Origin: a virus
Taxonomy: Duplodnaviria > Heunggongvirae > Uroviricota > Caudoviricetes
DNA length: 62,402 bases
Reading direction: 5' to 3' (one strand)
Virus record (IMG/VR): IMGVR_UViG_3300029219_000144
Shown here piece after piece: positions 1-13,186 of this stretch. The translations under genes and the position numbers were made by a program. The first letter of the stretch is position 1, and each line of letters opens with the position of its first letter. The notes under the pieces are model-generated. The model ran no database searches. It was not told the origin of the DNA and saw only the letters and a list, made by a program, of their open reading frames with translations.

Positions 1-125
1 TGAAGAGCTTTCATCTGCCCAGCGGTTATTTTTGTGCCTTTAGTTCGTTTAAGCACTTTCTCTAGTGTTTTCCACTCAACCTTAACTCCATCCAGCAATT
101 TTTCCAGATAACTCAACTCGCTCAT
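1..125 (-). CDS. hsdS: Type I restriction-modification specificity subunit HsdS, N-terminal fragment (gene continues beyond window start)
   Basis: Reverse complement of 1-125 reads ATG then [24 protein letters not shown]... with no stop before the window edge; its ATG overlaps the hsdM stop in an ATGA arrangement typical of hsdM-hsdS coupling. Confidence 0.55.
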
Positions 126-1684
126 TTCTGTACCTCGCAGCCTTCAATTTCAGCCACAATCGCATCAATATCTTTGCGCAATTGGTCGATTTTGCTGACC
201 GTGGTTTTCAGCTCTGCATTCAACTCAGCGATATCGATAATTTCGCGAGTATCTTTCGCTTCCACATAGCTGCTCACCGACAGGTTATAGTCATTAGCTA
301 CAACGGTCTCAAACGCGACAGATTTTGCCAGATGAGCAACATCTTCCTTGCTGGCAAATACCTGCATAATCTGTTCGATATGGGCATCGGTCAGGATATT
401 GTTGTTAGTCTCTTTTTTGAACAATTCGCTGGCATCAATAAACTGAACTTTGGTATCCGTTTTATGTTTAGACAGCACCAGAATATTGACGGCAATGGTG
501 GTGCCAAAGAACAGGTTCGGTGCCAGTGAAATCACGGTTTCGACATAGTTATTGTCGACCAGATACTGACGGATTTTCTGCTCCGCACCGCCACGGTAAA
601 AAATACCCGGGAAGCAAACAATCGCAGCACGACCTTTGGCAGAAAGATAGTTCAGCGCATGTAATACAAACGCAAAGTCAGCTTTGGATTTGGGGGCCAG
701 AACGCCAGCTGGGGCAAAACGTTCATCGTTAATCAGCGTCGGGTCATCGCTGCCAATCCATTTCACCGAATACGGTGGGTTAGAAACGATGGCATCAAAC
801 GGTTTTTCATCTCTGAAGTGCGGTTCAGTCAGCGTATTGCCCAGCTTGATATCAAACTTGTCGTAGTTGATGTTGTGCAAAAACATGTTCATACGCGCCA
901 GGTTATAGGTCGTATGGTTGATTTCCTGACCAAAAAAACCTTCTTCGATGATATGGTCATCAAACTGTTTTTTAGCCTGCAACAACAGCGAACCGGAGCC
1001 TGCTGCCGGGTCGTAGATTTTGTTAACGTGGGTCTGCCCGTGCATAGCCAGTTGTGCAATCAGCTTAGAGACGTGCTGCGGTGTAAAGAACTCACCGCCT
1101 GACTTACCGGCATTTGCCGCATAGTTAGAAATCAGGAACTCATAGGCATCACCGAACAGGTCAATCTGATGTTCGTTGAAGTCACCAAGTTTTAACCCTT
1201 CAACCCCTTTCAGAACCGCAGCCAGGCGGGCATTTTTATCTTTAACGGTGTTACCCAGGCGGTTACTGGTGGTATCGAAATCAGCAAACAAACCTTTGAT
1301 GTCAGCTTCTGAAGGGTAACCGTAAGCAGAGCTTTCGATAGCAACGAAGATGCTGTTTAAATCTGCATTCAGTCTGTCATTAGTATTTGCTTTCGCAGCT
1401 ACGTTGCAGAAAAGCTGACTGGGGTAGATGAAGTAGCCTTTAGTTTTGATGGCATCGTCTTTAATGTCATCAGTAATTACGCTGTCATCCAGTTTCGCAT
1501 AACAGATACTGTCATCACCGGCTTCAATATAGCTGGAAAAATTTTCGCTGATAAAACGGTAGAAAAGTGCGCCCAGAACGTATTGCTTAAAATCCCATCC
1601 ATCGACCGAACCCCTGACATCGTTAGCAATTTGCCAGATTTGACGATGAAGCTCTGCACGTTGTTGAATACTTGTCATTTTCAT
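122..1684 (-). CDS. hsdM: Type I restriction-modification DNA methyltransferase subunit HsdM (N6-adenine)
   Basis: 520-aa ORF with the N6-adenine methyltransferase catalytic motif NPPYS ([11 protein letters not shown]) and typical HsdM N-terminal region. Confidence 0.9.
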
Positions 1685-1808
1685 CCACTTATTTCAGGCT
1701 TATGTAATTGGATGTGATTCTACAGCAACTTGGATGCTTTAGCAGTTCGGACATTAGGCAACGAATGACCTAATTAGAGCTTTTTGGAAAAGCGGTATTG
1801 TCGGTGCG

Positions 1809-2033
1809 ATGATAGCTATGTTTGGGTGCGCGATGGTGCAATACAATGACGGTGAAAAGGTAAGCATCCAGTCTGATGGCTGGTATGGGCTGGATAGCCT
1901 GCAAAAAACCGCAGATAAAGCCTGTCAGCAATATGGAAAGTCCAAAGCTGTATATCAGCATAGTGCGAACGCTAACCCTCATCTTACGCCCGGTTCGGGT
2001 GTTCAGAATACCATCTGGAAATGTGAGCCTTAA
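1809..2033 (+). CDS. hypothetical small protein (74 aa)
   Basis: ORF ending one codon before the next ORF start (TAA then ATG at 2036); no recognisable motif. Confidence 0.3.
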
Positions 2034-2035
2034 AC

Positions 2036-2287
2036 ATGAGCAACTGGAACATAGCAGCTAAAAGCCAGGAAGAAAGGAATAAAGTTAACGTTGACCTGGC
2101 TGCCAGGGGGGTTGCCTACAAAGAGCGATTGAACATACCCGTCATAGCGGAACAGGTAGCCCGTGAGCAACCTGAGAACCTGCGCACCTATTTCATGGAA
2201 CGGCTACGGCACTACCGGCAGTTAAGCCTCCTGCTGCCAAAAGGAAACGATCCGGTATATCAGAAAGAAGATATAGCCAAAAAATAA
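2036..2287 (+). CDS. hypothetical small protein (83 aa)
   Basis: ORF tightly coupled to the upstream ORF; function not recognised. Confidence 0.35.
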
Positions 2288-2385
2288 CGCGCCACCAGGC
2301 GAGCGCAAAGCATCGCGCTATTGCACACTTCAAGCATCTTTAATGTATACTGTATGGATAAACAGTGCTCTGAGGTGAAAACGCT

Positions 2386-2775
2386 ATGGGCTTCCCTTCT
2401 CCTGCGGCGGATTATGCTGAGAGCCGTATTTCTCTTGATCAGCAGATAATTAGACATCCTTCAGCGACCTACTTCATGAGGGCAGCTGATAGTCATCATC
2501 GTGAGGGAATATTACAGGGTGCATTGCTGGTGGTTGATTCCTCACTTACCCCGGTTGATGGTTCTCTGCTTGTATGCGCTCTGGATGGGGAATATCGCGT
2601 AAAAAGATACCGGAAGTATCCACGTCAGCATCTGGAGGATTTAAGAACCGGTAAGAAGGAAGCATTGCCAAAGGATGACGATGGATGCACGGGCAGCAAT
2701 GCCGTGTTTGGTGTGATCACTCACATTATCAACGACGCAAGAAGTGGCGAGTTTGATGATTGTCCCGTGATGTAG
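2386..2775 (+). CDS. UmuD-like LexA/S24-family peptidase, lacking the UmuD N-terminal arm
   Basis: Protein starts MGFPSPAADYAE and aligns from memory with E. coli UmuD from its cleavage-site region onward (GFPSPAADYVE); Ser (AADSH) and Lys (YRVKRY) of the S24 dyad appear retained; RBS GAGGTGA upstream. Confidence 0.65.
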   Translation: MGFPSPAADYAESRISLDQQIIRHPSATYFMRAADSHHREGILQGALLVVDSSLTPVDGSLLVCALDGEYRVKRYRKYPRQHLEDLRTGKKEALPKDDDGCTGSNAVFGVITHIINDARSGEFDDCPVM

Positions 2776-2812
2776 GAGAACTGATTAGGCGGTGCAATGC
2801 ACCGCCTTTTTA

Positions 2813-3913
2813 TCACACTGCGCGGAATGCGATTTCGCCAGGTATTACTTCACCTTGCCAATACATTTGGGCAGCAACGCGATCTGCGAGGTCACGATAA
2901 ATAGCCGTAAATTCGCTATCTGGACGACTAATAACGGTTGGTGTTCCGTTATCCAGATCTTCACGAAGAGAGATATGAAGTGGCATTTGGCCTAACAACT
3001 GCGTGTTGTATTTCTCGGCCAGTTTCTGTGCGCCACCGGTGCCAAAAATTGGCTCGTGATGACCGCAGTTACTGCAAATATGCACACTCATGTTTTCGAC
3101 GATACCCAGTACCGGCACTTCGACTTTTTCGAACATCACAATGCCTTTCTTCGCATCGATCAGCGCGATGTCTTGCGGCGTAGTTACCACAACCGCACCA
3201 GTTACAGGAATGTTCTGCGCCAGCGTCAACTGAATATCACCAGTGCCCGGCGGCATATCGAGAACGAGATAGTCCAGATCAGGCCATAGAGTTTCCTGCA
3301 ACATCTGCATCAGCGCCTTGCTGGCCATCGGTCCACGCCACACCATTGCATTGTCGTCGGTGACCAGATAACCAATAGAGTTGGTTGCCAGGCCATGAGA
3401 CATGATAGGTGCCATGTGAGTACCGTCAGGTGAGGTTGGACGTTGGTTTTCCGCGCCCAGCATGGTTGGAATTGATGGACCATAGATATCGGCATCCAAA
3501 ATACCAACTTTCGCACCTTCAGCAGCCAACGCCAGTGCCAGGTTTACCGCCGTGGAGGATTTACCCACGCCGCCCTTGCCTGAGCTGACGGCGATAATGT
3601 TCTTAACGCCATTAATGCCTGGTTGGTTTTTGACGCGCTTAAGCGTGGCAATGTTGTACGACAGCTTCCAGTCAATAGCCTTTGCGCCAGTGATACGGAG
3701 CAGATCACCACTACATTGCTCTTTCAGGTCTTCAAAAGGCTTATTCCACACGAAAGGCATGATTAGTTCGACATGCAGTGTGTCATCCATCAACGCAACA
3801 TGGTGTAACGCTTTAAGCGTAGTCAGGTTGTGTTTCAGGGTTGGGTGCTGAAAATTAGCCAGCGTACCGGCTACCATTGCTCTCAGGGCATCCGGCGATT
3901 TGGACTCGCTCAT
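2813..3913 (-). CDS. apbC: Iron-sulfur cluster carrier ATPase ApbC/Mrp
   Basis: 366-aa ORF with deviant Walker A SGKGGVGKS, CxxC near the C-terminus (CSNCGHHEP); near-identical to E. coli Mrp as recalled. Confidence 0.92.
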   Translation of the reverse strand: MSESKSPDALRAMVAGTLANFQHPTLKHNLTTLKALHHVALMDDTLHVELIMPFVWNKPFEDLKEQCSGDLLRITGAKAIDWKLSYNIATLKRVKNQPGINGVKNIIAVSSGKGGVGKSSTAVNLALALAAEGAKVGILDADIYGPSIPTMLGAENQRPTSPDGTHMAPIMSHGLATNSIGYLVTDDNAMVWRGPMASKALMQMLQETLWPDLDYLVLDMPPGTGDIQLTLAQNIPVTGAVVVTTPQDIALIDAKKGIVMFEKVEVPVLGIVENMSVHICSNCGHHEPIFGTGGAQKLAEKYNTQLLGQMPLHISLREDLDNGTPTVISRPDSEFTAIYRDLADRVAAQMYWQGEVIPGEIAFRAV

Positions 3914-4070
3914 CCCGTCTCCTTTATTTTAATTTGCGCAATTGTCGCCTTGTAGTGTACTCCAGCTACGACATTTAATCATTTATGAGAAATGCTGTTA
4001 TCACATGGCAGACATAAGGCCATTTTGTTACTATCAAGCCCCTTTTCACTACAAAGAAGTAATGCCTACT

Positions 4071-6104
4071 ATGACCCAAGTCGCGAAGAAAATTCTGGTG
4101 ACGTGCGCGCTGCCGTACGCTAACGGCTCAATCCACCTCGGCCATATGCTGGAGCACATCCAGGCTGATGTCTGGGTTCGTTACCAGCGAATGCGCGGCC
4201 ACGAGGTTAATTTCATCTGTGCCGACGATGCCCACGGTACGCCGATCATGCTGAAAGCACAGCAGCTTGGTATCACACCGGAGCAGATGATTGGCGAAAT
4301 GAGTCAGGAACACCAGACTGATTTCGCAGGCTTTAACATCAGCTATGACAACTATCACTCGACGCACAGCGAAGAGAACCGTCAGTTGTCTGAGCTTATC
4401 TATACTCGCCTGAAAGAGAACGGTTTTATTAAAAACCGCACTATCTCTCAGTTGTACGACCCGGAAAAAGGCATGTTCCTGCCGGATCGTTTTGTAAAAG
4501 GCACCTGCCCGAAATGTAAAGCGCCAGATCAATACGGCGATAACTGTGAAGTCTGCGGCGCAACATATAGCCCGACTGAATTGATCGAGCCGAAATCGGT
4601 GGTTTCTGGCGCTACCCCGGTAATGCGTGATTCCGAACACTTCTTCTTTGATCTGCCTTCTTTCAGCGAAATGTTGCAGGCATGGACCCGCAGCGGCGCG
4701 TTGCAGGAGCAGGTGGCGAACAAAATGCAGGAATGGTTTGAATCCGGCCTGCAACAGTGGGATATCTCCCGCGATGCGCCTTACTTCGGTTTTGAAATTC
4801 CGAACGCGCCGGGCAAATATTTCTACGTCTGGCTGGACGCGCCGATTGGCTACATGGGTTCCTTCAAGAATCTGTGCGACAAGCGCGGCGATACCACCAG
4901 CTTCGATGAATACTGGAAGAAAGACTCCACCGCCGAGCTGTACCACTTCATCGGTAAAGATATTGTTTACTTCCACAGTCTGTTCTGGCCAGCAATGCTG
5001 GAAGGCAGCAACTTCCGCAAGCCGACCAACCTGTTTGTTCATGGCTATGTGACGGTGAACGGCGCGAAGATGTCCAAGTCTCGCGGCACCTTTATTAAAG
5101 CCAGCACCTGGCTGAATCATTTTGACGCTGACAGCCTGCGTTACTACTACACTGCGAAACTCTCTTCGCGCATTGATGATATCGATCTCAACCTGGAGGA
5201 TTTCGTTCAGCGCGTGAATGCCGATATCGTGAACAAAGTGGTTAACCTGGCCTCCCGTAATGCAGGCTTTATCAACAAGCGTTTTGACGGCGTGCTGGCA
5301 AGCGAACTGGCTGACCCGCAACTGTACAAAACCTTTACTGATGCCGCTGAAGTGATTGGCGAAGCATGGGAAAGCCGTGAATTTGGTAAAGCTATCCGTG
5401 AAATCATGGCATTGGCTGACCTGGCTAACCGCTATGTCGATGAACAGGCTCCGTGGGTGGTGGCGAAGCAGGAAGGACGCGATGCCGATCTGCAGGCGAT
5501 TTGCTCTATGGGCATTAACCTGTTCCGCGTGCTGATGACGTACCTGAAGCCGGTACTGCCGAAACTGACTGAACGTGCAGAAGCATTCCTGAATACAGAA
5601 CTGACTTGGGATGGTATCCAGCAACCGCTGCTGGGCCATAAAGTGAATCCGTTCAAGGCACTGTATAACCGCATCGATATGAAGCAGGTTGAAGCACTGG
5701 TGGAAGCATCCAAAGAAGAAGTGAAAGCCACAGCCGCACCGGTAACTGGCCCACTGGCTGACGACCCGATTCAGGAAACTATCACCTTTGACGACTTCGC
5801 CAAAGTTGACCTGCGCGTGGCGCTGATTGAAAACGCAGAGTTTGTAGAAGGTTCTGACAAACTGCTTCGTCTGACACTGGATCTCGGTGGTGAAAAGCGT
5901 AATGTCTTCTCAGGCATCCGTTCTGCTTATCGAGACCCACAGGCACTGATTGGTCGTCACACCATTATGGTGGCTAACCTGGCTCCGCGTAAAATGCGCT
6001 TTGGCATCTCCGAAGGCATGGTGATGGCTGCCGGTCCTGGCGGGAAAGATATTTTCCTGCTAAGCCCGGATGCCGGTGCTAAACCAGGCCACCAGGTTAA
6101 GTAA
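4071..6104 (+). CDS. metG: Methionine--tRNA ligase MetG
   Basis: Start chosen at [29 protein letters not shown] (HLGH class I motif) matching the E. coli MetG N-terminus; KMSKS present; the ORF-track start at 3942 is an in-frame upstream extension. Confidence 0.95.
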
Positions 6105-6257: not shown

Positions 6258-6506
6258 ATGAAGATGTTTGGAACAGCAAAAGAAATCATCGAGAAACTGA
6301 AAAACTATCCAGAAGACGAACCCTTACTCATGGTTATGTGGCACAAAGAAGATATTGCTGAAGTAAGGACAGATCTCACTGATGAACAATGCGTACAGGT
6401 GATGCAAAAAATCAGACAATACCATAACGCTGATGTCGGCGTTAATTGGGAGGTTATATCAACTACGGCGAATGAGTTGTTTCCGAACGGGGTGGTAAAA
6501 TGCTGA
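6258..6506 (+). CDS. hypothetical phage early protein (82 aa)
   Basis: ORF with AGGAG just upstream (second ATG at 6264 has better spacing); preceded by the operator palindrome. Confidence 0.5.
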   Translation: MKMFGTAKEIIEKLKNYPEDEPLLMVMWHKEDIAEVRTDLTDEQCVQVMQKIRQYHNADVGVNWEVISTTANELFPNGVVKC

Positions 6507-6688
6507 AACTCACCAAATTGTATAAGACGACAGTTAGTAGCCCTACCCTCGTTACACAGCATGACTCTGAGTGTCTACCAAATATCTGTTTCGAGCACCA
6601 TACGATCTCGGACTCAATTGGGTACAGAAACGGAGTATGGGGGAGTCAGGGGAGGGAAGAAAAGCTGCGTGATTACGGTGTCACATAG
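6500..6688 (+). CDS. hypothetical small protein (62 aa)
   Basis: ATG overlaps the stop of the upstream ORF (ATGCTGA), suggesting translational coupling; no motif recognised. Confidence 0.3.
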   Translation: MLKLTKLYKTTVSSPTLVTQHDSECLPNICFEHHTISDSIGYRNGVWGSQGREEKLRDYGVT

Positions 6689-6800
6689 CAAACCATCAAG
6701 AACATTCGAAAGGTGCTCGATGTAGGATTTGATGCGGTACAATTCCACCCTGACGCTGAAATAGACGATGGTCTGGAAAATTGGAAATTGTGAGGGATAA

Positions 6801-7199
6801 ATGAAATATGCACCATTGGCACTAATATTTTTTGTGCTTTCTGCTAATGCCACGCCAGTTGAAGAGCCTAACACTATCGTGTACCCACGATGCATGAAAA
6901 TAGATCCGGAAACACACAAGCAATTACCTGGTTACAATATTGTTATGGATATAGGGAATAAATTTAAAATCGTTTCCCCAAATGGGAATTCGGTGATATC
7001 CATCTCGCTTGCCCAAAGTGAAAAAGATAGGAACATGTTCGACGCCTCAGTCGGCGATGTTTACTTCTCTCGTTACCATGTTCAACCTGATGGGAACTTT
7101 CTATACTCAGCCTGGAGTGAAAAGGCGAAAGTTACAGTGCTGTGTAATGGTAAAAGCGGTGAGCGGCATTACGTTGACCCTATTCATTTCGAGAACTGA
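6801..7199 (+). CDS. hypothetical secreted protein (132 aa, N-terminal signal peptide)
   Basis: N-terminus MKYAPLALIFFVLSANA then TPVEEP looks like a Sec signal peptide; RBS GAGGGA 5 nt upstream. Confidence 0.55.
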   Translation: MKYAPLALIFFVLSANATPVEEPNTIVYPRCMKIDPETHKQLPGYNIVMDIGNKFKIVSPNGNSVISISLAQSEKDRNMFDASVGDVYFSRYHVQPDGNFLYSAWSEKAKVTVLCNGKSGERHYVDPIHFEN

Positions 7200-7329
7200 C
7201 TACACAAGTAAACAAATCAATCAGTTGATAATGGCGGTCACAATTTGATTCTTTTCTATAAGAATCCGTTGATCGCCACTACTCCCCTTCCATACCTGCA
7301 ATCACATCCTTAAATATCAATAAGTTATA

Positions 7330-8110
7330 GTTGTTTATACAATCAAGAAAACAACTGAATAACAGATCAACGAAACATCAACGCTTTCACCCGATTTGGT
7401 CTAAAAAATTGACGTTTTCACACATCACTGCTTATACCCGTAATTCTACGCAGCAGACAGCGCCACAGCGTCCAATTTTCACCACAGACGACCCAACACA
7501 CTACCAACAAAAACACACGCTCAAAATCGTTCCCGTTGCGTTACACAACCATATAAACAACTTATTTTAAGGCATAGCAAAACAACTAAATAACACACAT
7601 GCCATTCCCCAAAACAACCAACCTCTTTATGGCAGGCTACCGAAAAGACCCACCTCTTCTCCCCAGGCTACCGGACAACCAACCTAACTTTCACAGGCAA
7701 TCCGAAAACATTCATACGCGCGATACCCACGACACGCCATTACCCAAACAGCGAAGAAACACCAGAATCACTGAAACCCCAACGAAGCCTGTAACCGCAA
7801 GGTTTCTCTCAATCCCAAAAGACACGAAACATAACAATCACGGGAAACGCCATTACCCAATACACGAATAACTACAAAAGCCTTCACACACTCCAGACAA
7901 ACAACTCAAACACAATAACGAAAGGAATCGCCAACCTGCCATTACTCCATACACGGAGAAGAACAATCACCAAAACGACGAGAACACCCCATAGAAGAAC
8001 CACCGCAAAACGAACGAAACCACATACACCGACAGAGAGAACAACACGCCCAATTCACCAACAGAAATAGTCGCCGTATAGAACGTTCTGGAAGGAGTGA
8101 GCATTAACGC
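7330..8110 (+). other. ~0.8 kb non-coding tract with strong strand asymmetry (A+C-rich, G/T-poor on the + strand)
   Basis: Visibly few G and T over hundreds of bases (ccaacc, cacgaaac, caaaacgacga motifs); ORFs here lack RBS and have low-complexity translations. Confidence 0.6.
7607..7695 (+). repeat. Degenerate ~85-bp intergenic element, copy A (paired with 10785-10865)
   Basis: Shares aaaacaaccaacctctt .. caggctaccg .. acccacct .. ggctaccg .. caactttc with copy B by eye. Confidence 0.5.
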
Positions 8111-8277
8111 CTATAGAGAGGTTGAGACAGATAAAACACGAAGAAAACACAACATGTATAGCGAAGAAGACAGGTATGTATAAGTGGGGAGGGAAGGAGT
8201 GGTGTCGCCTCCTTTTTCGTATTTATTCAACTCCTGATTTTATCCCCCGTAAAACCCCTACGGTCAGCCTTCGGTCC

Positions 8278-8420
8278 ATACAGGGAAAAGGTTGCATCCC
8301 GCTACAGAAACGGCTGGGTTGCCTTCGGGGAACGGCTGGGGATTTTCAGGGAAACGGTCGAGTTGCCTGTGTGGATTTCGGGAAAAGGCTCGATGCCGGT
8401 TCAGGAACGGCGGCGTACCG
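8278..8420 (+). repeat. Iteron-like cluster: about 6 direct repeats of (C)AGGGAAACGGCT at ~19-32 bp spacing
   Basis: Copies at ~8281, 8305, 8327, 8346, 8378, 8400 (agggaaaagg, cagaaacggc, ggggaacggc, agggaaacgg, gggaaaaggc, caggaacggc). Confidence 0.6.
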
Positions 8421-8746
8421 GTATAGCGAGAGGGAGAGTTGCGGCTACCCACCTGTAATGTGCGGGAAGAAGAGAGGCGCTCACGTGCAGGCGAACTTAC
8501 TTACCGCTGGATTCCCTCTGAATGCCCAGTTACAGCGTAATTGTGCCAGACAGCCAACGGGTCACAATCGATTTCAGTAGGTTTTCGGGGAGATGATTAT
8601 TCTGCCCACCAGCCACCTTCGGCCACTAAATCAGAATAATGTAAAAAGTGTTCTCGGTACTGAACCTGAAAACTCACTGCCAAAACCACATTCACCGGAA
8701 TAAAATCCTTTTTCGCCTGTGCGTTATTGCGATAATAACACCAACA

Positions 8747-8762
8747 AGAAAACATGTTGTTT
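8747..8762. promoter_or_regulatory. Palindrome GAAAACATGTTGTTTA (operator family)
   Basis: Motif lies 13 nt upstream of the ATG at 8775. Confidence 0.5.
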
Positions 8763-8774
8763 AAGGATTGCTTT

Positions 8775-9104
8775 ATGTTTGCACATATCGACATCAACCA
8801 AATCAAGAAATTGACTCAAAAAGAGTTTGACCAGTTCTATGAGCTGGAAGGTTGGTCTTCCACTCTGATCAATTCGCGGTGGGTACTTGAGCTGATGACT
8901 CGTGATGACGCACCTGCTTTGATGATTTGCGACATGGGTGAAGATGCTGACTTTATGGATATGAGCGAATTTTGTGTGGACACATACAACCGCAGCCAGA
9001 AGTACTACTTCACATGCGATAGCGAAAATGACGTGATTTCTAAGGTCTATCTTCACCTCGTCCAGCATTGGGACGTTCAGGAGTTTCTTGAGGTATTCGA
9101 GTAA
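8775..9104 (+). CDS. hypothetical phage early protein (109 aa, acidic)
   Basis: Start chosen at the second ATG (MFAHIDINQ) with AAGGA upstream; the first ATG at 8754 lies inside the operator palindrome. Confidence 0.5.
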   Translation: MFAHIDINQIKKLTQKEFDQFYELEGWSSTLINSRWVLELMTRDDAPALMICDMGEDADFMDMSEFCVDTYNRSQKYYFTCDSENDVISKVYLHLVQHWDVQEFLEVFE

Positions 9105-9231
9105 ACCCAACCAAAGCCAGCAATGCTGGCTTAATTTCTCTATAGCCGCAGGGAGGAACCTGCATATCGATCATGCACCTGATCATTATGCTTTGTAGCC
9201 GTTTTCTTACTGGTATTATTTACGCCATTGA

Positions 9232-9247
9232 GAAAACAAGTTGTTTA
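9232..9247. promoter_or_regulatory. Palindrome GAAAACAAGTTGTTTA (operator family)
   Basis: Followed by CGGAG and the ATG at 9258. Confidence 0.5.
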
Positions 9248-9257
9248 CGGAGTTGTG

Positions 9258-9569
9258 ATGAAAAAATCATTGGTTCTTGGTCTGGACAAAGACCAGAAGA
9301 GAAAAGAGAAGCCTGCACTGGTTGCTCAATTAACTTTGCTGGACATCGTTGCCAATGGAACTTCTATTCGTCTGTTCCGTGAAACAGCGGTGTCTTTCGA
9401 TAAAAACACCTTTACTCGTTATGTAATGAATGTTCGTCGCCAGCGTGGAAAAGGATGGGTGGCATTTCAAAGAATGTGGCCGGAACATCAGCTCGAACTG
9501 GCCTTGATGGAAGTTAACCGCGTGGCCCAGCAAGAAATTCAGAGAGCATCAGTGATGGCAATAGCCTGA
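9258..9569 (+). CDS. hypothetical phage early protein (103 aa)
   Basis: Start MKKSLVLGL with ACGGAG RBS; followed by a hairpin terminator. Confidence 0.5.
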   Translation: MKKSLVLGLDKDQKRKEKPALVAQLTLLDIVANGTSIRLFRETAVSFDKNTFTRYVMNVRRQRGKGWVAFQRMWPEHQLELALMEVNRVAQQEIQRASVMAIA

Positions 9570-9603
9570 TAATGTGCAAGTGGTAATTAGTCGACAGTAC
9601 GAC

Positions 9604-9631
9604 AGCCCCGCCATCCTTACGGGGCTTTTTT
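9604..9631 (+). terminator. Rho-independent terminator
   Basis: AGCCCCG..CGGGGCT stem followed by TTTTTT. Confidence 0.7.
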
Positions 9632-9636
9632 GTATT

Positions 9637-9652
9637 GTAAGTACATACTTAC
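9637..9652. promoter_or_regulatory. Palindrome GTAAGTAcaTACTTAC (TAAGTA/TACTTA family)
   Basis: Perfect inverted repeat about 45 nt upstream of the 9696 start. Confidence 0.45.
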
Positions 9653-9695
9653 GATCATAGAATATAAAAATAACCAATACACTACGGAGAGTGAA

Positions 9696-10091
9696 ATGAC
9701 CGTTAAACGCGAAAAACTGACAGTTGATGTTTACTATGCCTCTGAAACCGCCGAAGGTAAGAATGTGGCAAAAATCACCGTTGTTACGTACAACACCGAA
9801 ACTGGTGCCGAAGTCCAGGCCAGTACGATCGTGCGTAAAGGTGACGCCTCCGGCGGCGAGTACGCGACTCAATACCAGTCCATTCTCGATGCAACTGACC
9901 CGCTGCTGCTGAAAATCGAGAACTACTTCCGCCAGGTTGATGAAGAGGTGTTTGAAACCATGATGAATATGGTTAACACCGTATTCGCCTCCAGCCTGAA
10001 CACCAGCACCACCTGGATTGGCCAGTACGGTCTGCGCATTACCTCTGGCATTCCTGCCGACACCTTAATCCCTGAAAGCGTATTCGCTTAA
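9696..10091 (+). CDS. hypothetical phage protein (131 aa)
   Basis: Start MTVKREKL with GGAGAG RBS 5 nt upstream; terminator follows. Confidence 0.5.
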   Translation: MTVKREKLTVDVYYASETAEGKNVAKITVVTYNTETGAEVQASTIVRKGDASGGEYATQYQSILDATDPLLLKIENYFRQVDEEVFETMMNMVNTVFASSLNTSTTWIGQYGLRITSGIPADTLIPESVFA

Positions 10092-10102
10092 TCCTCTTTA
10101 AA

Positions 10103-10127
10103 TGGCGCGTAAACCGCGCCATTTTAT
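10103..10127 (+). terminator. Rho-independent terminator
   Basis: ATGGCGCG taaac CGCGCCAT followed by TTTT. Confidence 0.7.
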
Positions 10128-10136
10128 TATGCCCGA

Positions 10137-10151
10137 TAACAATTTGTTTTC
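10137..10151. promoter_or_regulatory. Palindrome ATAACAATTTGTTTT (operator family variant)
   Basis: Upstream of the ORF starting at 10167 or 10209. Confidence 0.45.
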
Positions 10152-10166
10152 TGCCTTATCAGATTT

Positions 10167-10583
10167 GTGAAAATGATTTCACTGAAGCAACTTAATAAGG
10201 AAACCATCATGGGACTTGATATCTATATCGAGACACAGCCTAAAAACGATCTGAATAACGAGGCATCCAGAAAGCAGGTTGCTTACTTCCGTAAGTTCAA
10301 TGCGCTCGTTGGGTGGATGGAGCGCAACGTAGGTGAAGTCGAAAATTGTGAGCTTTTAGAATTAACGATGAATGACATTTGTCTTCTGAAAGCTCATTTG
10401 ATGCACATAAACGAAAGCAATTGCGAAGAGTACTTGCCTACTCGGGAAGGTTTTTTCTTCGGCAGTCAGGAGTACGACGAAGGTTACTGGCATGACGTGG
10501 ATAAGCTGAAAAAACTTGTGGAAGACCTGATCAGGAACCACGACTTTCACAATAACAGACTGACCTTCTGCGCCTGGTGGTAA
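10167..10583 (+). CDS. hypothetical phage protein (138 aa; alternative start 10209)
   Basis: ORF; ATG at 10209 (MGLDIYIE) has AAGGA RBS and may be the real start. Confidence 0.5.
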   Translation: MKMISLKQLNKETIMGLDIYIETQPKNDLNNEASRKQVAYFRKFNALVGWMERNVGEVENCELLELTMNDICLLKAHLMHINESNCEEYLPTREGFFFGSQEYDEGYWHDVDKLKKLVEDLIRNHDFHNNRLTFCAWW

Positions 10584-10585
10584 AT

Positions 10586-10729
10586 ATGGGCGATTTCAAG
10601 AAACGCCTGAAGGAAAGAGCCGAGATGGTCAGAAAGCAAAACGCCTCTTCTGTCATCAGATACGCAAGGCAGTTTAGTCGCAACAACAAATCAGTTGAGG
10701 AAAAGATCCTTAGCGTAATCGGTCGATAA
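10586..10729 (+). CDS. hypothetical small basic protein (47 aa)
   Basis: ATG 2 nt after the upstream stop; translated by hand as MGDFKKRLKERAEMVRKQNASSVIRYARQFSRNNKSVEEKILSVIGR; followed by a hairpin. Confidence 0.3.
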   Translation: MGDFKKRLKERAEMVRKQNASSVIRYARQFSRNNKSVEEKILSVIGR

Positions 10730-10734
10730 TTATT

Positions 10735-10758
10735 AAGGCCATCAGCATTGATGGCCTT
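10735..10758. other. Perfect 10-bp-stem hairpin AAGGCCATCA gcat TGATGGCCTT without a clear U-tract
   Basis: Inverted repeat read directly; possible terminator, RNA-processing or protein-binding site. Confidence 0.5.
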
Positions 10759-10784
10759 AAATGACCATCCTGTTTCCCGCAGGC

Positions 10785-10865
10785 TAAAAACACCAACCTC
10801 TTACCTCCAGGCAACCGACAAACCCACCTGTTCCCGTCCGGCTACCGCAACTTTCCACTTTGACG
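10785..10865 (+). repeat. Degenerate ~85-bp intergenic element, copy B (paired with 7607-7695)
   Basis: aaaacaccaacctcttacctccaggcaaccgacaaacccacctgttcccgtccggctaccgcaactttccac aligns by eye with copy A. Confidence 0.5.
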
Positions 10866-10898
10866 CCTTATTCGTACAACGATAATTAACACCAATAA

Positions 10899-10913
10899 GA
10901 AAACAATTTGTTA
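10899..10913. promoter_or_regulatory. Palindrome GAAAACAATTTGTTA (operator family)
   Basis: 20 nt upstream of the ATG at 10934. Confidence 0.5.
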
Positions 10914-10933
10914 TTTACGATAAGGAATTAATC

Positions 10934-11416
10934 ATGAATTTTATCGCTACTGTAAACGCACCCGCACATGGCAATATCGCTGTAACGTTCTCTGACATTG
11001 AAAAACGAGTACTTGGTGCATGGCGCGACAATGAGACGGTAGAACTGTCAGCACAAGAAAAATGCATTATTGCACGCGACATCATTGGCAATCGTCGTTA
11101 CTCGCGGGTATTTGAGAAAGCGTATGTGGTAAATTCTGGATTCGGAACGTTCGTCTTTCCGGTGCGCTCCGGGCGATTCTGCCAGTCCAAGCTGATTGAG
11201 TTCGCTACGCAGATTTCTGTCTGGATTAAAACTCAATCGTCGTTCAAATTTTCCGACGATGAAGCAGTATCGCAGGGGATGCGGATCGCCAACAATGCAA
11301 TTAAATGCAAAAACATTACGTATACCGCTGGCGTTGATACATGGAAACTGTTTTGCGCTAACTTTATGCTGAATGTATACGCAAGCAACCGCATCCACAT
11401 CCTTGATGGCGTGTAA
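10934..11416 (+). CDS. hypothetical phage protein (160 aa)
   Basis: ORF with AAGGAA RBS; terminator follows. Confidence 0.55.
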   Translation: MNFIATVNAPAHGNIAVTFSDIEKRVLGAWRDNETVELSAQEKCIIARDIIGNRRYSRVFEKAYVVNSGFGTFVFPVRSGRFCQSKLIEFATQISVWIKTQSSFKFSDDEAVSQGMRIANNAIKCKNITYTAGVDTWKLFCANFMLNVYASNRIHILDGV

Positions 11417-11421
11417 CTGAG

Positions 11422-11448
11422 AAGAGGGCCAGAAACGGCCCTTTCTCT
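11422..11448 (+). terminator. Rho-independent terminator
   Basis: AGGGCC agaaac GGCCCT followed by TTCTCT; the loop contains the iteron core AGAAACGG. Confidence 0.6.
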
Positions 11449-11466
11449 ATAGCCACCAGCTGCCGC

Positions 11467-11555
11467 AGGGAAATTTTCAGAAACGGCGAGGAACGTATTC
11501 ATGAGCCGACGGGAAACGGCCAGGATTTTTTCGGGAAACGGCTGCATTCGCCTTT
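11467..11555 (+). repeat. Second iteron-like cluster (3-4 copies of GGGAAACGGC)
   Basis: cagaaacggc, gggaaacggcc and gggaaacggctg within 90 bp; same core as the 8278-8420 cluster. Confidence 0.55.
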
Positions 11556-12011
11556 ATGTAGAAAAAACATCGGGAAGCTGGTGGAATCCAACCAGCGGTT
11601 GTCGGACAGGTGAGCGGGGAAAATTATGATGACTTTCGTCGCCTGAGACATCCAGATTTCTTTCGTAGCGTAATCACATACGTGATTAAGTGGTGTGATT
11701 ATGTGAAAAATCACGCGCACATAATACGCGAGCGGACACAGAACAACACAAAATGCCGATCCGCGCCGACAAATAAACGCGGATCACATAGCAAGACTAA
11801 AAGCCAATGATTAACCATACGCTATAGCGCAATATAACGCGTTTTAAGCGCGTTAATGTGTTAAGTAATGGGTATGTACTGGCAAGGATATAAAAGCGCG
11901 TCTATGGCGTTATTTTGGCGCTTATTTTTATGTTGTTGGAGTGAGTTAAAGACAATAAAAAACGCGCCATCATTGGCGCGTTATGGTGGGAGTATTGGAA
12001 ACGAAAAAAGC

Positions 12012-12048
12012 GCCCATAGTGGGCGCTCGATTTTATTTGTGTAAACTG
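12012..12048. terminator. Bidirectional hairpin terminator AGCGCCCAtagTGGGCGCT flanked by an A-run and a T-run
   Basis: Perfect 8-bp stem; T-rich on both strands. Confidence 0.65.
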
Positions 12049-12263
12049 ATTTTAAATCCCATTTCTACAAACGCTTTTAACATTAAAAAAATATCAGCGT
12101 CGTTCACGTCTGCTTTTTTTCGCTCCTGGTCGCTCAATAAGTCAATTTTGCGCGTTGTTTCATTTATAAGCTCGACTGCGCGCCCAGCGTAACCAGCGAT
12201 CCCAGCGATGCGATTAACATAATATTCGTTATGGACGTTAACGCCAGCGATAAGAACAAACAT
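12033..12263 (-). CDS. hypothetical protein (76 aa), AT-rich moron cassette
   Basis: Minus-strand ORF in a low-GC block; its stop overlaps the terminator hairpin. Confidence 0.45.
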   Translation of the reverse strand: MFVLIAGVNVHNEYYVNRIAGIAGYAGRAVELINETTRKIDLLSDQERKKADVNDADIFLMLKAFVEMGFKISLHK

Positions 12264-12283
12264 GATTAAGCTCCTTAAAAAAA

Positions 12284-12487
12284 TTAAATAGAATTTTGAA
12301 GTTTTCCGATTAATGCGCTTAAACGTAAGTATTCACGTTTGCGCTTGCAATCTCGCTTGCTGTTAAGCAAATCAGAAAACGTAAAATTTAATTGGTCGCG
12401 TTGCGCGATCAAATCATCGATTAATTCCAGTTTATAAGCGCGATACTTTGCGCGATATTCCGCGCGGATCTTGTCATAGCTGACCAT
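12284..12487 (-). CDS. hypothetical protein (67 aa; ORF-track start at 12532 lies inside a hairpin)
   Basis: Start set at MVSYDKIRAEYRAKY with AAGGAG RBS 8 nt upstream. Confidence 0.45.
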   Translation of the reverse strand: MVSYDKIRAEYRAKYRAYKLELIDDLIAQRDQLNFTFSDLLNSKRDCKRKREYLRLSALIGKLQNSI

Positions 12488-12504
12488 TTTTAAAGCTCCT
12501 TTAA

Positions 12505-12523
12505 AGCGCCCATAGTGGGCGCT
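12505..12523. other. Second copy of the hairpin AGCGCCCATAGTGGGCGCT (identical to 12018-12036)
   Basis: Same 19-bp sequence between the 216-aa gene stop and the next gene's RBS. Confidence 0.6.
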
Positions 12524-12535
12524 TGATTCCATTAA

Positions 12536-13186
12536 TTACGCTTTGAAAGCATCAGCTAAATAATTGTAGAAATCATTTTTAATGAAGCGATATTGCTGAG
12601 TACCAGCTTTCGCGCTCCCAGCTCCTTTGACTTTTTCAACAAGTCCAAGACGTTCGCAAAGATTGATCAACTGGTTGGCTTGAGTATAGCCAGCGTCCAA
12701 TTTAATTTCACACGCTTTTTTAGCTTCATTCATTAAATCGAAAACAGCGCCATTGGTGAACGTGTCGATCTCGTCGTTAATCATATCGATTAAAGCGAAT
12801 ACACGAGATCCTGACATATCAGCGATGGAATAAACGCATTTACCAGATTTAATTGATTTAACCAGATAAACCAGTTTTTCCAGAGAATAACTATTAGTCA
12901 TTGCATCACGGAAAAATACTTCTGGCGCTTGTTTGCTTGCTTTAATCGCATAGTAAAAAACAGAGCATAATTTTTCGTCTTCTACAGCGTTTACAACGTT
13001 GTTGATGAAGTAAGCAAGTTTAGTGGTCGCAGCTTGCATATTTGCTTTGTCTGCTTTAGTGTGCGTACCATTTTTATAATGTTCGTTATATGTTTGAGTT
13101 GCCAGATCTGCTTTTTCGCGCAGCTCGTCGGATACAATAGATGCAGCTTCAATGATGGACTTTTTAGAAATGATAATGTTAGCCAT
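12536..13186 (-). CDS. hypothetical protein (216 aa), AT-rich moron cassette
   Basis: Minus-strand ORF in a low-GC block; no motif recognised. Confidence 0.55.
   Translation of the reverse strand: MANIIISKKSIIEAASIVSDELREKADLATQTYNEHYKNGTHTKADKANMQAATTKLAYFINNVVNAVEDEKLCSVFYYAIKASKQAPEVFFRDAMTNSYSLEKLVYLVKSIKSGKCVYSIADMSGSRVFALIDMINDEIDTFTNGAVFDLMNEAKKACEIKLDAGYTQANQLINLCERLGLVEKVKGAGSAKAGTQQYRFIKNDFYNYLADAFKA

What the first reader, a model, noticed from the sequence alone, without database searches (positions are those of the whole stretch)
7330..8420. 0.8 kb A/C-rich, G/T-poor non-coding tract followed by an iteron-like array of GGAAACGGC repeats
Between the early genes there is about 1.5 kb without a convincing gene. 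The first ~780 bp have extreme strand asymmetry (by eye A+C well above 70% on the + strand), which creates spurious low-complexity ORFs. Next come about 6 direct repeats of (C)AGGGAAACGGCT at roughly two-helical-turn spacing, and a second cluster of the same core lies at 11467-11555. Iterons suggest a replication origin or protein-titration site; a long C-rich, G-poor transcript would be an ideal Rho-loading region or a non-coding RNA. None of this is explained by annotated genes.
Basis: seen in the sequence. Interest (0 to 1): 0.66.

Follow-up and report, generated by a model that had tools for sequence, protein, structure and literature searches.

The report
Conserved non-coding control region, SSU5-type phage-plasmid
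A 1.5-kb gene-free stretch, kept in hundreds of SSU5-type phage-plasmids of gut bacteria, joins a long A/C-only segment that looks built to stop transcription through the Rho factor to a phased array of six short repeats that is not the plasmid's replication origin and whose binding partner is unknown.

Summary
The window is an E. coli SSU5-type phage-plasmid (97.5% identical to phage Cyrano/pLF82). Positions 7200-8753 hold no gene. A+C is 70-71% over about 0.8 kb (z=7) and 74% over 7480-8067. Six RGRAAMGGY repeats lie at 8284-8411, spaced 22/22/22/31/22 nt, and a second cluster lies at 11431-11542.

The module occurs in 839 PLSDB plasmids across about 10 genera, with composition, repeat phase and several motif blocks conserved. 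It is not protein-coding, matches no Rfam family, and is not the plasmid origin. RepA sits 33 kb away in Cyrano, flanked by more than 20 unrelated iterons, a DnaA box and GATC clusters.

My best reading (about 0.4) is a rightward-read, untranslatable, structure-free leader that acts as an extended Rho-loading insulator. It would separate variable cargo genes from a conserved early operon and ends at a hairpin. Phased protein-binding arrays then bracket that operon.

A phage-mode origin, a centromere or an RNA sponge are not excluded. The partner protein and the function of the arrays remain unknown. The element is undescribed in the papers I could search, and its function would need experiments to settle.

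The parts
7222..7279 (+). Block A. A nearly invariant 58-bp block (CGTTGAC-ATTGGCG-GTCAC ... CTATAAG ... CCGTTGATCGCCAC) that marks the left edge of conservation. Upstream of it the genes differ in every lineage.
   Evidence: Alignment of 12 lineages; differing upstream genes.
7340..7408 (+). Block B. It holds a copy of the dispersed gene-start motif AAGAAAACAAnTnAATAAC (7345-7364), then tandem ATCAACG-N4-ATCAACG (7366-7383) and GATTTGGTCTAAAAA. I take it as operator-like.
7409..7437 (+). Promoter-like element TTGACG-17 nt-TTATAC, pointing right. It is conserved in all 12 lineages and unique in the window. The -10 is non-canonical and the consensus scan does not call it.
7540..7595 (+). Block C. 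A copy of the genome-wide gene-start module (palindrome AAACAAnTTGTTT at 7555-7567, then AAGG, then a second AAAACAAnTnAATAAC) with no conserved start codon or ORF behind it.
7440..8110 (+). The A/C-rich, G/T-poor tract (A 263, C 212, T 95, G 91 over 7440-8100). C/G is 2.3 overall and reaches 4.6 in 78-nt windows.
   Evidence: the skew is conserved in 12 lineages.
7609..7700 (+). F2(a). Three tandem 31-nt repeats (CAGGCTACCG-N9-CCACCTCTT type).
   Evidence: (family D3).
7597..7966 (+). GCCATTAC(C/T)(C/T)(C/A)ATACACGGAGAAGAAC-type repeats, with four copies here (7600, 7736, 7849, 7938) and six in SSU5-type lineages.
   Evidence: (D2, D4).
8179..8217 (+). Conserved TATAAG, a G-run (8186-8199) and a hairpin (8193-8199 pairing with 8209-8215) that runs into T5. 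It looks like an intrinsic terminator in this lineage and is weaker in others.
   Evidence: 13 pairs, 4 with compensatory changes, total only -5.3 kcal/mol; not flagged by the scan.
8281..8424 (+). F1(a). Six phased direct repeats with core (C/G)(G/A)G(A/G)AA(C/A)GG, start-to-start spacing 22/22/22/31/22, and a weaker TnCC patch about one helical turn downstream of the core.
8606..8613 (-). A Chi site (GCTGGTGG on the - strand) between the array and the operon promoter, conserved in most lineages.
8728..8777 (+). Promoter and leader of the early operon: TGcGATAAT (extended -10), AACACCAACAAGAAAACA, the palindrome at 8750-8762, the Shine-Dalgarno AAGGA, and the ATG at 8775.
   Evidence: the PHROG match starts at residue 8 of the 116-aa ORF.
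10735..10860 (+). F2(b). A second A/C-rich intergenic segment with three units of the same 31-nt repeat (about 10780-10858). It gives the second-longest run of RUT-rule windows on the + strand of the window.
   Evidence: conserved in SSU5.
10860..10936 (+). TTGACG-15 nt-GATAAT promoter-like element, the same leader motif (10888-10905), the palindrome (10901-10913) and the ATG at 10934 of a conserved 160-aa gene.
11426..11448 (+). Hairpin GGGCC-AGAAAC-GGCCC followed by TTTCTCT, ten bases after the stop codon of gene 10934-11416.
   Evidence: Read from the sequence; an equivalent hairpin is in SSU5; not flagged by the scan.
11431..11555 (+). F1(b). The second cluster of the same repeat: strict copies at 11431, 11479, 11512 and 11534, plus a partial copy at 11467.
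   Evidence: conserved in Cyrano, PhiR41_1, pSTEC388_1 and SSU5.

Best explanation
The stretch is the conserved non-coding control module at the junction between the variable cargo (moron and defence) genes and a conserved operon of small early genes in SSU5-type phage-plasmids.

Shown:
- It is gene-free and not under coding selection.
- It is conserved across genera in architecture and composition, rather than uniformly in sequence.
- It is not the RepA plasmid origin.

Inferred mechanism:
1. Blocks A and B (7222-7437) are operator and promoter sequences. Block C (7540-7595) is a copy of the element's standard gene-start module. All point rightward.
2. What they, or read-through from the cargo genes, would transcribe is an RNA of about 0.65-0.8 kb made almost only of A and C. 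Such an RNA cannot fold, because A and C do not pair. It also cannot be translated, because it has almost no ATG, GTG or TTG. It is C-rich and G-poor with regularly spaced C. This is an extreme, extended Rho-utilisation (rut) zone.
3. I propose it works as a Rho-dependent terminator or insulator. It would stop transcription coming from whatever cargo lies upstream before that transcription reaches the downstream DNA elements and the early operon. The hairpin at 8193-8217 would back it up.
4. A shorter segment of the same kind, with the same 31-nt repeats (10735-10860), sits inside the operon in front of the last gene's own promoter.
5. The six repeats phased at two helical turns (8281-8424), and the matching cluster behind the operon's end hairpin (11431-11555), are DNA sites for an unidentified sequence-specific protein. 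Together they bracket the 2.7-kb operon.

What the protein does there is not resolved. Options include looping or silencing of the operon, or initiation of phage-mode replication.
For: - **Identity and spread.** The region is 97.5% identical to phage Cyrano. It matches 839 PLSDB plasmids, 361 of them over at least 80% of its length. Among phage records only SSU5-like ones carry it.
- **Non-coding.** PGAP calls no gene and there are no family hits. No ORF is conserved in position or frame. A 186-aa ORF is open in only 3 of 12 lineages. Variable columns by codon position are 48/45/45 (p=0.94), and non-synonymous to synonymous codon differences run about 3:1. The repeat periods of 22 and 31 nt are not multiples of three.
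- **Not the plasmid origin.**
- **Composition is what is conserved.** A+C is 60-80% in all 12 lineages at 66-73% identity. A<->C swaps make up 29-33% of differences in four of the five lineage comparisons (14% in the closest pair, SSU5-Cronobacter), against 9-17% in the right flank.
- **Rut features.** 63% of 78-nt windows pass the RhoTermPredict RUT rule, against 10% overall. 56% have C/G of 2 or more, against 1.7% overall. The two longest such runs on the + strand of the whole window are 7400-7573 and 10735-10845, which are the two F2 sites (rule from PMC6407284).
- **Unstructured RNA.** The + strand RNA folds at -81 kcal/mol over 661 nt, against -175 for the complement.
- **Untranslatable.** The tract has 4 start codons against 35 expected.
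- **Orientation.** TTGACG-17-TTATAC is conserved. Block C is one of about 20 copies of a motif that lies 20-45 nt upstream of start codons across the genome, with 26 matches against 3.3 expected.
- **Expression.** In LF82 lysogens the upstream gene CYRAN_102 reads 57 units and CYRAN_103, inside the tract, reads 4.99, the floor. No intrinsic terminator is predicted between them.
- **Junction position.** Upstream neighbours differ in each lineage, while homology starts at block A.
- **Arrays.** The core and the 22-nt phase are conserved while the spacers diverge. No RNA structure signal was found: z is +0.34 and -0.15 and units show no covariation. Each array follows a hairpin.
Against: - There is no direct evidence that the + strand is transcribed, or that Rho acts here.
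- The RNA-seq drop occurs within about 110-470 nt of the upstream stop codon, partly before the most A/C-rich part. The downstream value is at the detection floor, so other explanations fit.
- A rut site needs about 80 nt, not 650. It needs C over G but not U depletion.
- The tract also carries strongly conserved repeat families (3 x 31 nt; 4-6 x GCCATTAC...) that a purely compositional Rho trap does not require. So it has at least one further function.
- The RUT rule is unspecific. It gives 23,930 predictions in E. coli K-12, of which about 62% of the testable ones were validated (PMC6407284).
- The proposed promoter has a poor -10.
- The operon has its own promoters, so the need for an insulator is an argument and not an observation.
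- No binding protein for the arrays was identified. The one conserved neighbour I modelled has no informative fold match.
Confidence: 0.4

Rival explanations
1. Phage-mode (lytic) replication origin. The two arrays would be initiator-binding iterons, arranged like P4 ori and crr or like lambda ori iterons. The strand-asymmetric tract would be an unwinding or priming zone that gives hairpin-free single strands to the element's T4-like machinery (gp32-like SSB, UvsX/RecA-like, UvsY, UvsW, RNase H, DnaB-like helicase, primase).
For: - The array has six repeats phased at 22 bp with conserved cores, plus a second cluster 3.1 kb away in the same orientation.
- Near-identical GGAAACGGC cores at 22-bp spacing are genuine origin iterons in other phages. 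There they lie inside an O-like initiator gene and are followed by GATC and AT-rich DNA.
- The element encodes its own replisome and T4-like recombination proteins.
- Hairpins precede both arrays, which could shield them from transcription.
Against: - No recognisable initiator gene lies next to the arrays, and the O-like initiator has no homologue in this genome.
- There is no AT-rich unwinding element, DnaA box or GATC cluster. The array flanks are 54-59% G+C.
- The replication genes lie about 44 kb away.
- Cumulative GC skew shows no inflection here beyond the tract itself.
- A rightward RNA would be G-poor, which disfavours an R-loop primer (inference).
Confidence: 0.15
2. Partition site or protein-titration site. 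The arrays would be the centromere bound by the small protein encoded next to the Walker-type ParA (50430-51457), or copy-number or regulator-titrating sites.
For: - Clusters of phased direct repeats, sometimes in two clusters, are typical of type Ib/II centromeres (established knowledge: pB171 parC1/parC2, R1 parC).
- No repeat array that could serve as a centromere is seen next to parA.
- The module is retained in 52-kb and 70-kb deletion derivatives that have lost the virion genes.
Against: - The arrays lie 42 kb from parA, whereas such centromeres normally abut the par operon.
- Retention in the derivatives may simply reflect linkage.
- Unit number varies from 3 to 6 between lineages.
- Nothing links the motif to the ParA partner.
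Confidence: 0.1
3. A trans-acting long non-coding RNA. An unstructured A/C-rich RNA of about 0.65-0.8 kb, running from about 7445 or 7570 to the hairpin at 8217, would sequester a host RNA-binding factor such as Rho or Hfq through its (AAC)n/ARN-like runs. The repeated motifs would be protein-binding sites on the RNA.
For: - Promoter-like modules lie upstream and a hairpin with a T-run lies at the end.
- The composition is maintained against sequence drift.
- The repeat families are all on one strand.
Against: - Expression is at the floor in all ten LF82 RNA-seq samples.
- No Rfam family matches.
- There is no structure or covariation signal.
- An untranslated C-rich RNA of this kind would itself be terminated by Rho before reaching full length (inference).
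Confidence: 0.1
4. A real protein-coding gene with odd composition, either a basic H/R/P/T/E-rich disordered protein or a recently decayed pseudogene.
For: - A 186-codon ORF spans the tract in pHCM2, pRHB17-C02_4 and the Citrobacter plasmid. Under the tract's composition an ORF that long is unlikely by chance, at about 7e-4 per frame under an independence model that I computed by hand.
- Some records annotate small ORFs here.
Against: - The ORF is broken independently by nonsense or frameshift changes in SSU5 (a plaque-forming phage), E. hormaechei, E. cloacae, Cronobacter and NT1F34. It is absent in the Klebsiella type and in this window.
- There is no third-position excess (48/45/45), and non-synonymous to synonymous differences are about 3:1.
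- It contains no methionine and has no Shine-Dalgarno sequence.
- No family hits were found.
- T depletion alone removes stop codons.
Confidence: 0.03

Closest known systems
Rho-dependent terminators and rut regions in untranslated leaders and phage early operons (lambda tR1 rutA/rutB; the Rho-dependent leaders of P4 and N15 immunity regions)
   Same: - The sense strand is C-rich, G-poor, unstructured and ribosome-free, downstream of early promoter-like elements.
- It sits between transcription units of a temperate phage or plasmid-prophage.
- It passes the published RUT rule.
   Different: - It is about eight times longer than a rut site.
- It is depleted in U as well as in G.
- It carries conserved repeat families.
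- No nut-, boxB- or seqA/seqC-like RNA partner was found.
- Rho dependence is untested.
Iteron-type origins (P1 oriR/RepFIB; lambda ori inside gene O; P4 ori plus crr)
   Same: - It has 4-6 direct repeats at two-helical-turn spacing, with a conserved core of about 9 bp and a weaker second patch one turn away.
- A second cluster lies a few kb away, as with P4 crr.
- GGAAACGGC-core iterons occur in lambdoid O-like genes.
   Different: - It is not next to any rep or initiator gene.
- It is unrelated to the element's own RepA iterons.
- It has no DnaA box, GATC cluster or AT-rich unwinding element.
- It lies in non-coding DNA directly after a terminator-like hairpin.
Dispersed operator systems of plasmid-prophages (P1 C1 operators; N15 dispersed centromere and operator palindromes)
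   Same: - One short motif (AAACAAnTTGTTT) is scattered in front of about 20 genes.
- One copy lies in the module, at block C.
   Different: - The binding protein is unknown.
- The motif is palindromic and lies next to the Shine-Dalgarno sequence, so action at the RNA level is not excluded.
- The F1 arrays are a different motif.

Membership tests
Iteron plasmid origin (RepA/RepFIB, P1 oriR type) | Iterons adjoin the cognate rep gene and share its iteron sequence | tested here: not met
   RepA lies at Cyrano 60633-61688, about 33 kb away. Its flanking iterons, CTCTCTATAGTGGATA, are unrelated to GGAAAMGG.
Iteron plasmid origin (RepA/RepFIB, P1 oriR type) | DnaA box(es), GATC cluster and AT-rich unwinding element beside the iterons | tested here: not met
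   There is no TTWTNCACA in 7200-8760. GATC occurs 2 times against 6 expected. The array flanks are 54-59% G+C.
Iteron plasmid origin (RepA/RepFIB, P1 oriR type) | Several direct repeats phased at about 21-22 bp | tested here: met
   The spacing is 22/22/22/31/22 and is conserved across lineages.
Rho-dependent terminator / rut region | At least 70-80 nt of C>G RNA with C every 11-13 nt | tested here: met
   63% of windows in 7330-8040 pass, against 10% overall. C/G reaches 4.6. The tract gives the longest run of passing windows on the + strand (rule from PMC6407284).
Rho-dependent terminator / rut region | Unstructured and ribosome-free RNA | tested here: met
   The RNA folds at -0.12 kcal/mol per nt. 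It has 4 start codons against 35 expected. There is no conserved ORF and no codon-position bias.
Rho-dependent terminator / rut region | Transcribed in that orientation, with the RNA level falling across it | tested here: inconclusive
   Rightward promoter-like modules are present. Published LF82 RNA-seq drops from 57 to 4.99, which is the floor. I did not examine strand-resolved coverage.
Rho-dependent terminator / rut region | Termination depends on Rho (bicyclomycin or rho mutants) | not testable with these tools
   This needs an experiment.
Phage lytic origin with initiator iterons (lambda O/ori, P4 ori/crr) | Iterons lie inside or beside the initiator gene | tested here: not met
   The neighbouring genes are small proteins of unknown function. 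The O-like initiator that accompanies similar iterons in other phages has no homologue in this genome.
Phage lytic origin with initiator iterons (lambda O/ori, P4 ori/crr) | Supports replication in cis during phage growth | not testable with these tools
   This needs marker-frequency or origin-cloning experiments.
Type Ib/II partition centromere | Repeat array adjoins the parA-parB operon and is bound by its small DNA-binding protein | tested here: not met
   parA is at 50430-51098, 42 kb away. However, no alternative array is seen beside parA. Binding is untestable here.
Protein-coding gene | Conserved reading frame, third-position substitution excess, family match | tested here: not met
Known RNA family (Rfam 15), including CsrB/RsmZ-type sponges | Covariance-model match, or a conserved structure with covariation | tested here: not met
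   There is no hit in 6500-12500 at E<=1 other than a weak Hrs1-like match at 11954-12020. Fold z-scores are near 0. The repeat units show no covariation.

The most novel reading that the evidence does not exclude
The tract and its two flanking arrays are the phage-mode replication origin of SSU5-type phage-plasmids. This would be an origin with no AT-rich unwinding element. Instead, a 0.7-kb region of extreme amino/keto strand asymmetry would yield two single strands that cannot form hairpins: one almost only A and C, the other almost only G and T, the kind of sequence RecA-family proteins prefer. These strands would suit loading of the element's T4-like SSB, UvsX, UvsY and UvsW proteins. The phased repeats would bind a still unrecognised initiator at two sites, in the manner of P4 ori and crr.
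Probability: 0.12. Interest if true: 0.8.

Novelty: new variant of a known kind. Interest (0 to 1): 0.6.

Why it matters
SSU5-type phage-plasmids (pHCM2 of S. Typhi, pLF82/Cyrano, the pKPHS1-like Klebsiella plasmids) are among the commonest extrachromosomal elements in clinical Enterobacteriaceae, and some carry resistance genes. How they control the switch between plasmid life and phage growth is essentially unknown.

This 1.5-kb module is present in every lineage I examined. It sits exactly where the variable cargo meets the conserved early genes. It is unannotated in the records I examined, apart from scattered, mutually inconsistent hypothetical ORF calls, and no paper in the held library describes it.

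If it is a long, purpose-built Rho trap, it would explain how such elements accept arbitrary expressed cargo without firing their early genes. It would also be an unusually clear case of selection for an RNA that can neither fold nor be translated.

The phased arrays define a DNA-binding activity still to be found. That activity could be a regulator, a lytic initiator or a partition protein, and the arrays give concrete probes for finding it.

Tried and rejected
- **Plasmid origin.** Rejected after I located RepA and its own iterons.
- **Protein coding.** Rejected.
- **Known RNA family.** No match.
- **Stable RNA structure, or covariation in the array or the hairpin.** None for the arrays, weak for the hairpin.
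- **CsrA-sponge idea.** The invariant positions are AA.GG, not GGA, so I dropped it.
- **Antisense partner elsewhere in the genome for the tract repeats.** No complementary stretch longer than 13 nt turned up. The search instead revealed the repeated promoter-leader motif.
- **R-loop origin driven from the minus strand.** I found no convincing leftward promoter, and all conserved promoter-like modules point rightward. I kept it only inside the origin rival.
- **Replication signal in cumulative GC skew.** Uninformative, because gene orientation dominates it.
- **Helical or other periodicities in the tract.** Only weak peaks near 10.5-11 and 30-33 nt, and none near 3 nt.
- **Truncated copies in large Klebsiella hybrid plasmids.** These proved to be IS-bounded remnants.
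- **Literature searches for any description of the element or for lytic-cycle transcriptomes of SSU5-like phages.** Nothing was found, and one preprint could not be opened.
Full report
**What the window is.** The 1.5 kb around the finding is 97.5% identical to Escherichia phage Cyrano (pLF82), and 92-97% identical to other E. coli SSU5-like phage-plasmids. With the sensitive search it matches 839 PLSDB plasmids: Klebsiella 431, Escherichia 224, Enterobacter 90, Salmonella 49, then Citrobacter, Cronobacter, Shigella and others. Of these, 361 match over at least 80% of its length, at 66-98% identity. Among deposited phages only SSU5-like ones carry it. RefSeq annotation leaves a gap of about 1.58 kb here. 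Other records place inconsistent small ORFs on either strand.

**Check of the observation.** For 7330-8110 the counts are A 307, C 241, T 127, G 106, so A+C is 70.2%. The best 780-nt window has 71.2%, against a window-wide mean of 50.2% (sd 3.0, z=7), and the runner-up has 59.6%. The maximal A/C segment is 7480-8067 at 74.5%. The repeat core RGRAAMGGY occurs 12 times in 62 kb. Six copies lie at 8284-8411 and four at 11431-11542, all on the + strand. The remaining about 48 kb of the Cyrano genome has no cluster.

**It is not coding and not a known RNA.**
- The ORFs over the region have no Pfam or NCBIfam match.
- In an alignment of 12 lineages no ORF keeps its position or frame.
- One frame is open for 186 codons in 3 of the 12 lineages. 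It is interrupted independently in SSU5, two Enterobacter plasmids, Cronobacter and NT1F34, and is absent in the Klebsiella type and in this window.
- Variable columns fall evenly on the three codon positions (48/45/45, p=0.94). Non-synonymous codon differences outnumber synonymous ones about 3:1.
- Rfam gives nothing in 6500-12500 except a weak sub-threshold match at 11954-12020.
- Neither strand of the tract or of the array folds better than shuffled controls.

**It is not the plasmid origin.** Primers published for Cyrano repA (PMC9928086) do not match the window. In Cyrano, RepA lies at 60633-61688, about 33 kb from the finding. It is flanked on both sides by more than 20 copies of CTCTCTATAGTGGATA-type iterons at about 21-bp spacing, together with TGTGGATAA and GATC clusters. 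Those iterons are unrelated to GGAAAMGG. The region studied here has no DnaA box, has GATC at 2 against 6 expected, and has no AT-rich stretch next to the array.

**Anatomy (and direct reading).**
- Homology between lineages begins abruptly at block A (7222-7279). Upstream of it every lineage has different genes: metG and apbC plus small genes here, GIY-YIG nuclease genes in Klebsiella and Enterobacter, ivy in Cronobacter, and others.
- Block B (7340-7408) and a conserved TTGACG-17-TTATAC element (7409-7437) follow.
- Block C (7540-7595) contains the palindrome AAACAAnTTGTTT.
- The tract then carries three tandem 31-nt repeats (F2, 7609-7700) and four GCCATTAC...GGAGAAGAAC repeats, with six in SSU5-type lineages.
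- It ends in a conserved TATAAG, a G-run and a hairpin running into T5 (8179-8217). RNAalifold support for the hairpin is weak, with 4 of 13 pairs showing compensatory changes.
- Next come the six F1 repeats (8281-8424), a G+C-rich 200 nt with a conserved Chi site on the minus strand (8606-8613), and then an extended -10 promoter-like element, leader, Shine-Dalgarno sequence and ATG of the first operon gene (8728-8777).

**Each repeat family occurs twice.**
- The F2 repeats recur at 10780-10858, again in an A/C-rich intergenic segment. There they lie directly upstream of a TTGACG/GATAAT promoter-like element and of the same leader motif (18 of 19 identical to 8736-8754), in front of the conserved 160-aa gene 10934-11416. 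SSU5 has the same arrangement.
- The F1 repeats recur at 11431-11555, ten bases after that gene's stop codon and around or behind a GGGCC-AGAAAC-GGCCC hairpin.
- So the two F1 arrays bracket the operon 8775-11416, and each follows a hairpin.

**The arrays.**
- In eight lineages the start-to-start spacing is exactly 22/22/22/31/22. In Klebsiella and Cronobacter it is 22/22. The unit count ranges from 3 to 6.
- Information content peaks in a 9-10-nt core, (C/G)(G/A)G(A/G)AA(C/A)GG, in which two positions (one A, one G) are invariant and their neighbouring A and G are 29 of 30. A weaker TnCC patch lies about one helical turn downstream. The spacers are free to vary.
- The periods are not multiples of three. 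I found no fixed-register covariation and no folding signal.
- This is the signature of sites for a DNA-binding protein placed on one face of the helix.
- A pattern scan of IMG/VR found the same core at the same spacing in unrelated phages. There it forms classical origin iterons inside an O-like initiator gene (Phg_2220_C domain), followed by GATC and AT-rich DNA. That initiator has no homologue in this genome.

**The tract.**
- Composition rather than sequence is what is kept. All 12 lineages hold 60-80% A+C over about 850 nt at 66-73% identity.
- A<->C exchanges account for 29-33% of differences in four of the five lineage comparisons and 14% in the closest pair (SSU5-Cronobacter). In the right flank they account for 9-17%.
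- If the + strand is the sense strand, A/C richness is the opposite of what transcription-associated deamination produces. That process enriches G+T on the non-template strand (my own knowledge). This argues for selection.
- The orientation evidence is as follows. The conserved TTGACG-17-TTATAC element points right. Block C is one of about 20 copies of a motif (ATAAGAAAACAAnTTGTTT) that lies 20-45 nt upstream of start codons across the genome, with 26 matches against 3.3 expected in the window, 13 against 2.3 in L005 and 21 against 0.5 in the SSU5 locus. The tract therefore sits where a gene would sit and is read rightward.
- The RNA would be nearly structure-free, at -81 kcal/mol for 661 nt against -175 for the complement. 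It has 4 potential start codons where 35 are expected.
- By the RhoTermPredict RUT rule (a 78-nt window with C/G>1 and C every 11-13 nt; PMC6407284), 63% of windows pass, against 10% overall. 56% have C/G of 2 or more, against 1.7% overall. The two longest such runs on the + strand of the whole window are 7400-7573 and 10735-10845, which are the two F2 sites.
- In published LF82 RNA-seq the upstream gene CYRAN_102 reads 57 units and CYRAN_103, which lies in the tract, reads 4.99, the floor value, in lysogens. It stays near the floor in all ten samples (methods). The scan finds no intrinsic terminator between them.

**Interpretation.**
- The best-supported reading is a non-coding control module. 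Operator and promoter blocks lead into a selected A/C-only leader that can neither fold nor be translated. It serves as an extended Rho-loading and termination zone, insulating the early operon and the DNA elements in front of it from transcription arising in the variable cargo. A hairpin follows, and phased protein-binding arrays bracket the operon.
- The steps shown are non-coding status, conservation of composition and phase, exclusion of the RepA origin, and the sequence features of rut sites.
- The steps inferred are transcription of the + strand, action of Rho, and protein binding at the arrays.
- Three things do not fit a pure Rho trap: the length of the tract, the U depletion, and the conserved GCCATTAC and 31-nt repeats. 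They imply at least one further function that I cannot name.

**Rivals.**
- A phage-mode origin (0.15) is compatible with the arrays, the P4-like pair of clusters and the element's T4-like replication and recombination genes. It lacks an adjacent initiator and any unwinding element.
- A centromere or titration site (0.10) is compatible with the absence of any array beside parA and with retention in deletion derivatives. But the arrays lie 42 kb from parA.
- A trans-acting RNA sponge (0.10) is not supported by the expression data.
- Coding (0.03) is effectively excluded.

**Dead ends.** The conserved 160-aa neighbour gave a confident model without structural relatives. Cumulative GC skew follows gene orientation only. 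Literature searches found no description of the element and no lytic-cycle transcriptome of an SSU5-like phage.

**Verdict.** This is a real, strongly conserved and undescribed non-coding module. The Rho-loading idea is the best-supported mechanism for the tract. The function of the arrays remains open.

Noticed in passing
window 6189, 6240, 7555, 8750, 9234, 10137, 10901, 20018, 20043, 50382, 53203; L005 5106, 20596, 32327, 42550, 43279, 47819: A 13-bp palindrome, AAACAAnTTGTTT, usually preceded by ATAAGA and a TAAT-like element, lies 20-45 nt upstream of the start codons of about 20 genes. These include the terminase, parA, dnaB-like and RNR-beta genes. Matches are 26 against 3.3 expected in the window and 21 against 0.5 in 12 kb of SSU5. 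It looks like a genome-wide operator or promoter-proximal signal whose binding factor is unknown.
   Followed up: partly
window, whole length (18 sites); L005 (8 sites): The Chi sequence GCTGGTGG is about 12-fold over-represented: 18 against 1.5 expected in the window, and 8 against 1.06 in the rest of the Cyrano genome. The + strand predominates from 19.8 to 59.5 kb of the window, and the - strand predominates in L005. Minus-strand Chi sites lie close to both F1 arrays (8606, 11453), and a + strand one lies at 11577.
   Followed up: partly
L005 22100-24400 (Cyrano 60.1-62.4 kb, outside the window): This is the true plasmid origin. repA is flanked on both sides by more than 20 iterons of the CTCTCTATAGTGGATA type at about 21-bp spacing, in both orientations, with TGTGGATAA and several GATC clusters.
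   Followed up: yes
window 122-6104: The cargo upstream of the module includes a type I restriction-modification hsdM gene (122-1684), a UmuD/LexA-like gene (2386-2775), an ApbC/Mrp-like ATPase gene (2813-3913, - strand) and a full-length methionyl-tRNA synthetase gene (about 4071-6104). This cargo block differs between lineages.
   Followed up: partly
[not shown]
   Followed up: partly
window 52280-52336: A perfect 18-bp inverted repeat (GACCTGCTTCTGTATATA ... TATATACAGAAGCAGGTC, 21 nt apart) lies in the intergenic region between the DUF2971 gene and the next gene, about 0.8 kb downstream of the parA partner's stop codon.
   Followed up: no
L138 (CP057434.1, 52-kb plasmid pRHB27-C04_3) 39.7-41.9 kb: This is a deletion derivative that has lost the virion genes but keeps the module. 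It has five instead of six F1 units, and an IS100 is inserted about 65 nt to the right of the array, between the array and the operon promoter.
   Followed up: partly
window 11700-12030: A dense cluster of terminator-like hairpins on both strands lies between the convergent operons. Twelve were found in 9000-12600 against 4.5 expected. One overlaps a weak sub-threshold Rfam Hrs1 match at 11954-12020 (32 bits, gathering score 56.4).
   Followed up: no
L120 2383-3489, and L021, L027, L054, L062, L073, L113, L115 (IMG/VR contigs): Unrelated phages carry 4-5 iterons of the type TGGAAACGGCAATATCGCCGAA at exactly 22-bp spacing, inside an O-like initiator gene (Phg_2220_C domain), followed by repeated ACAGATCA. 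This is a lambdoid-style origin whose iteron core happens to match the repeats studied here.
   Followed up: partly
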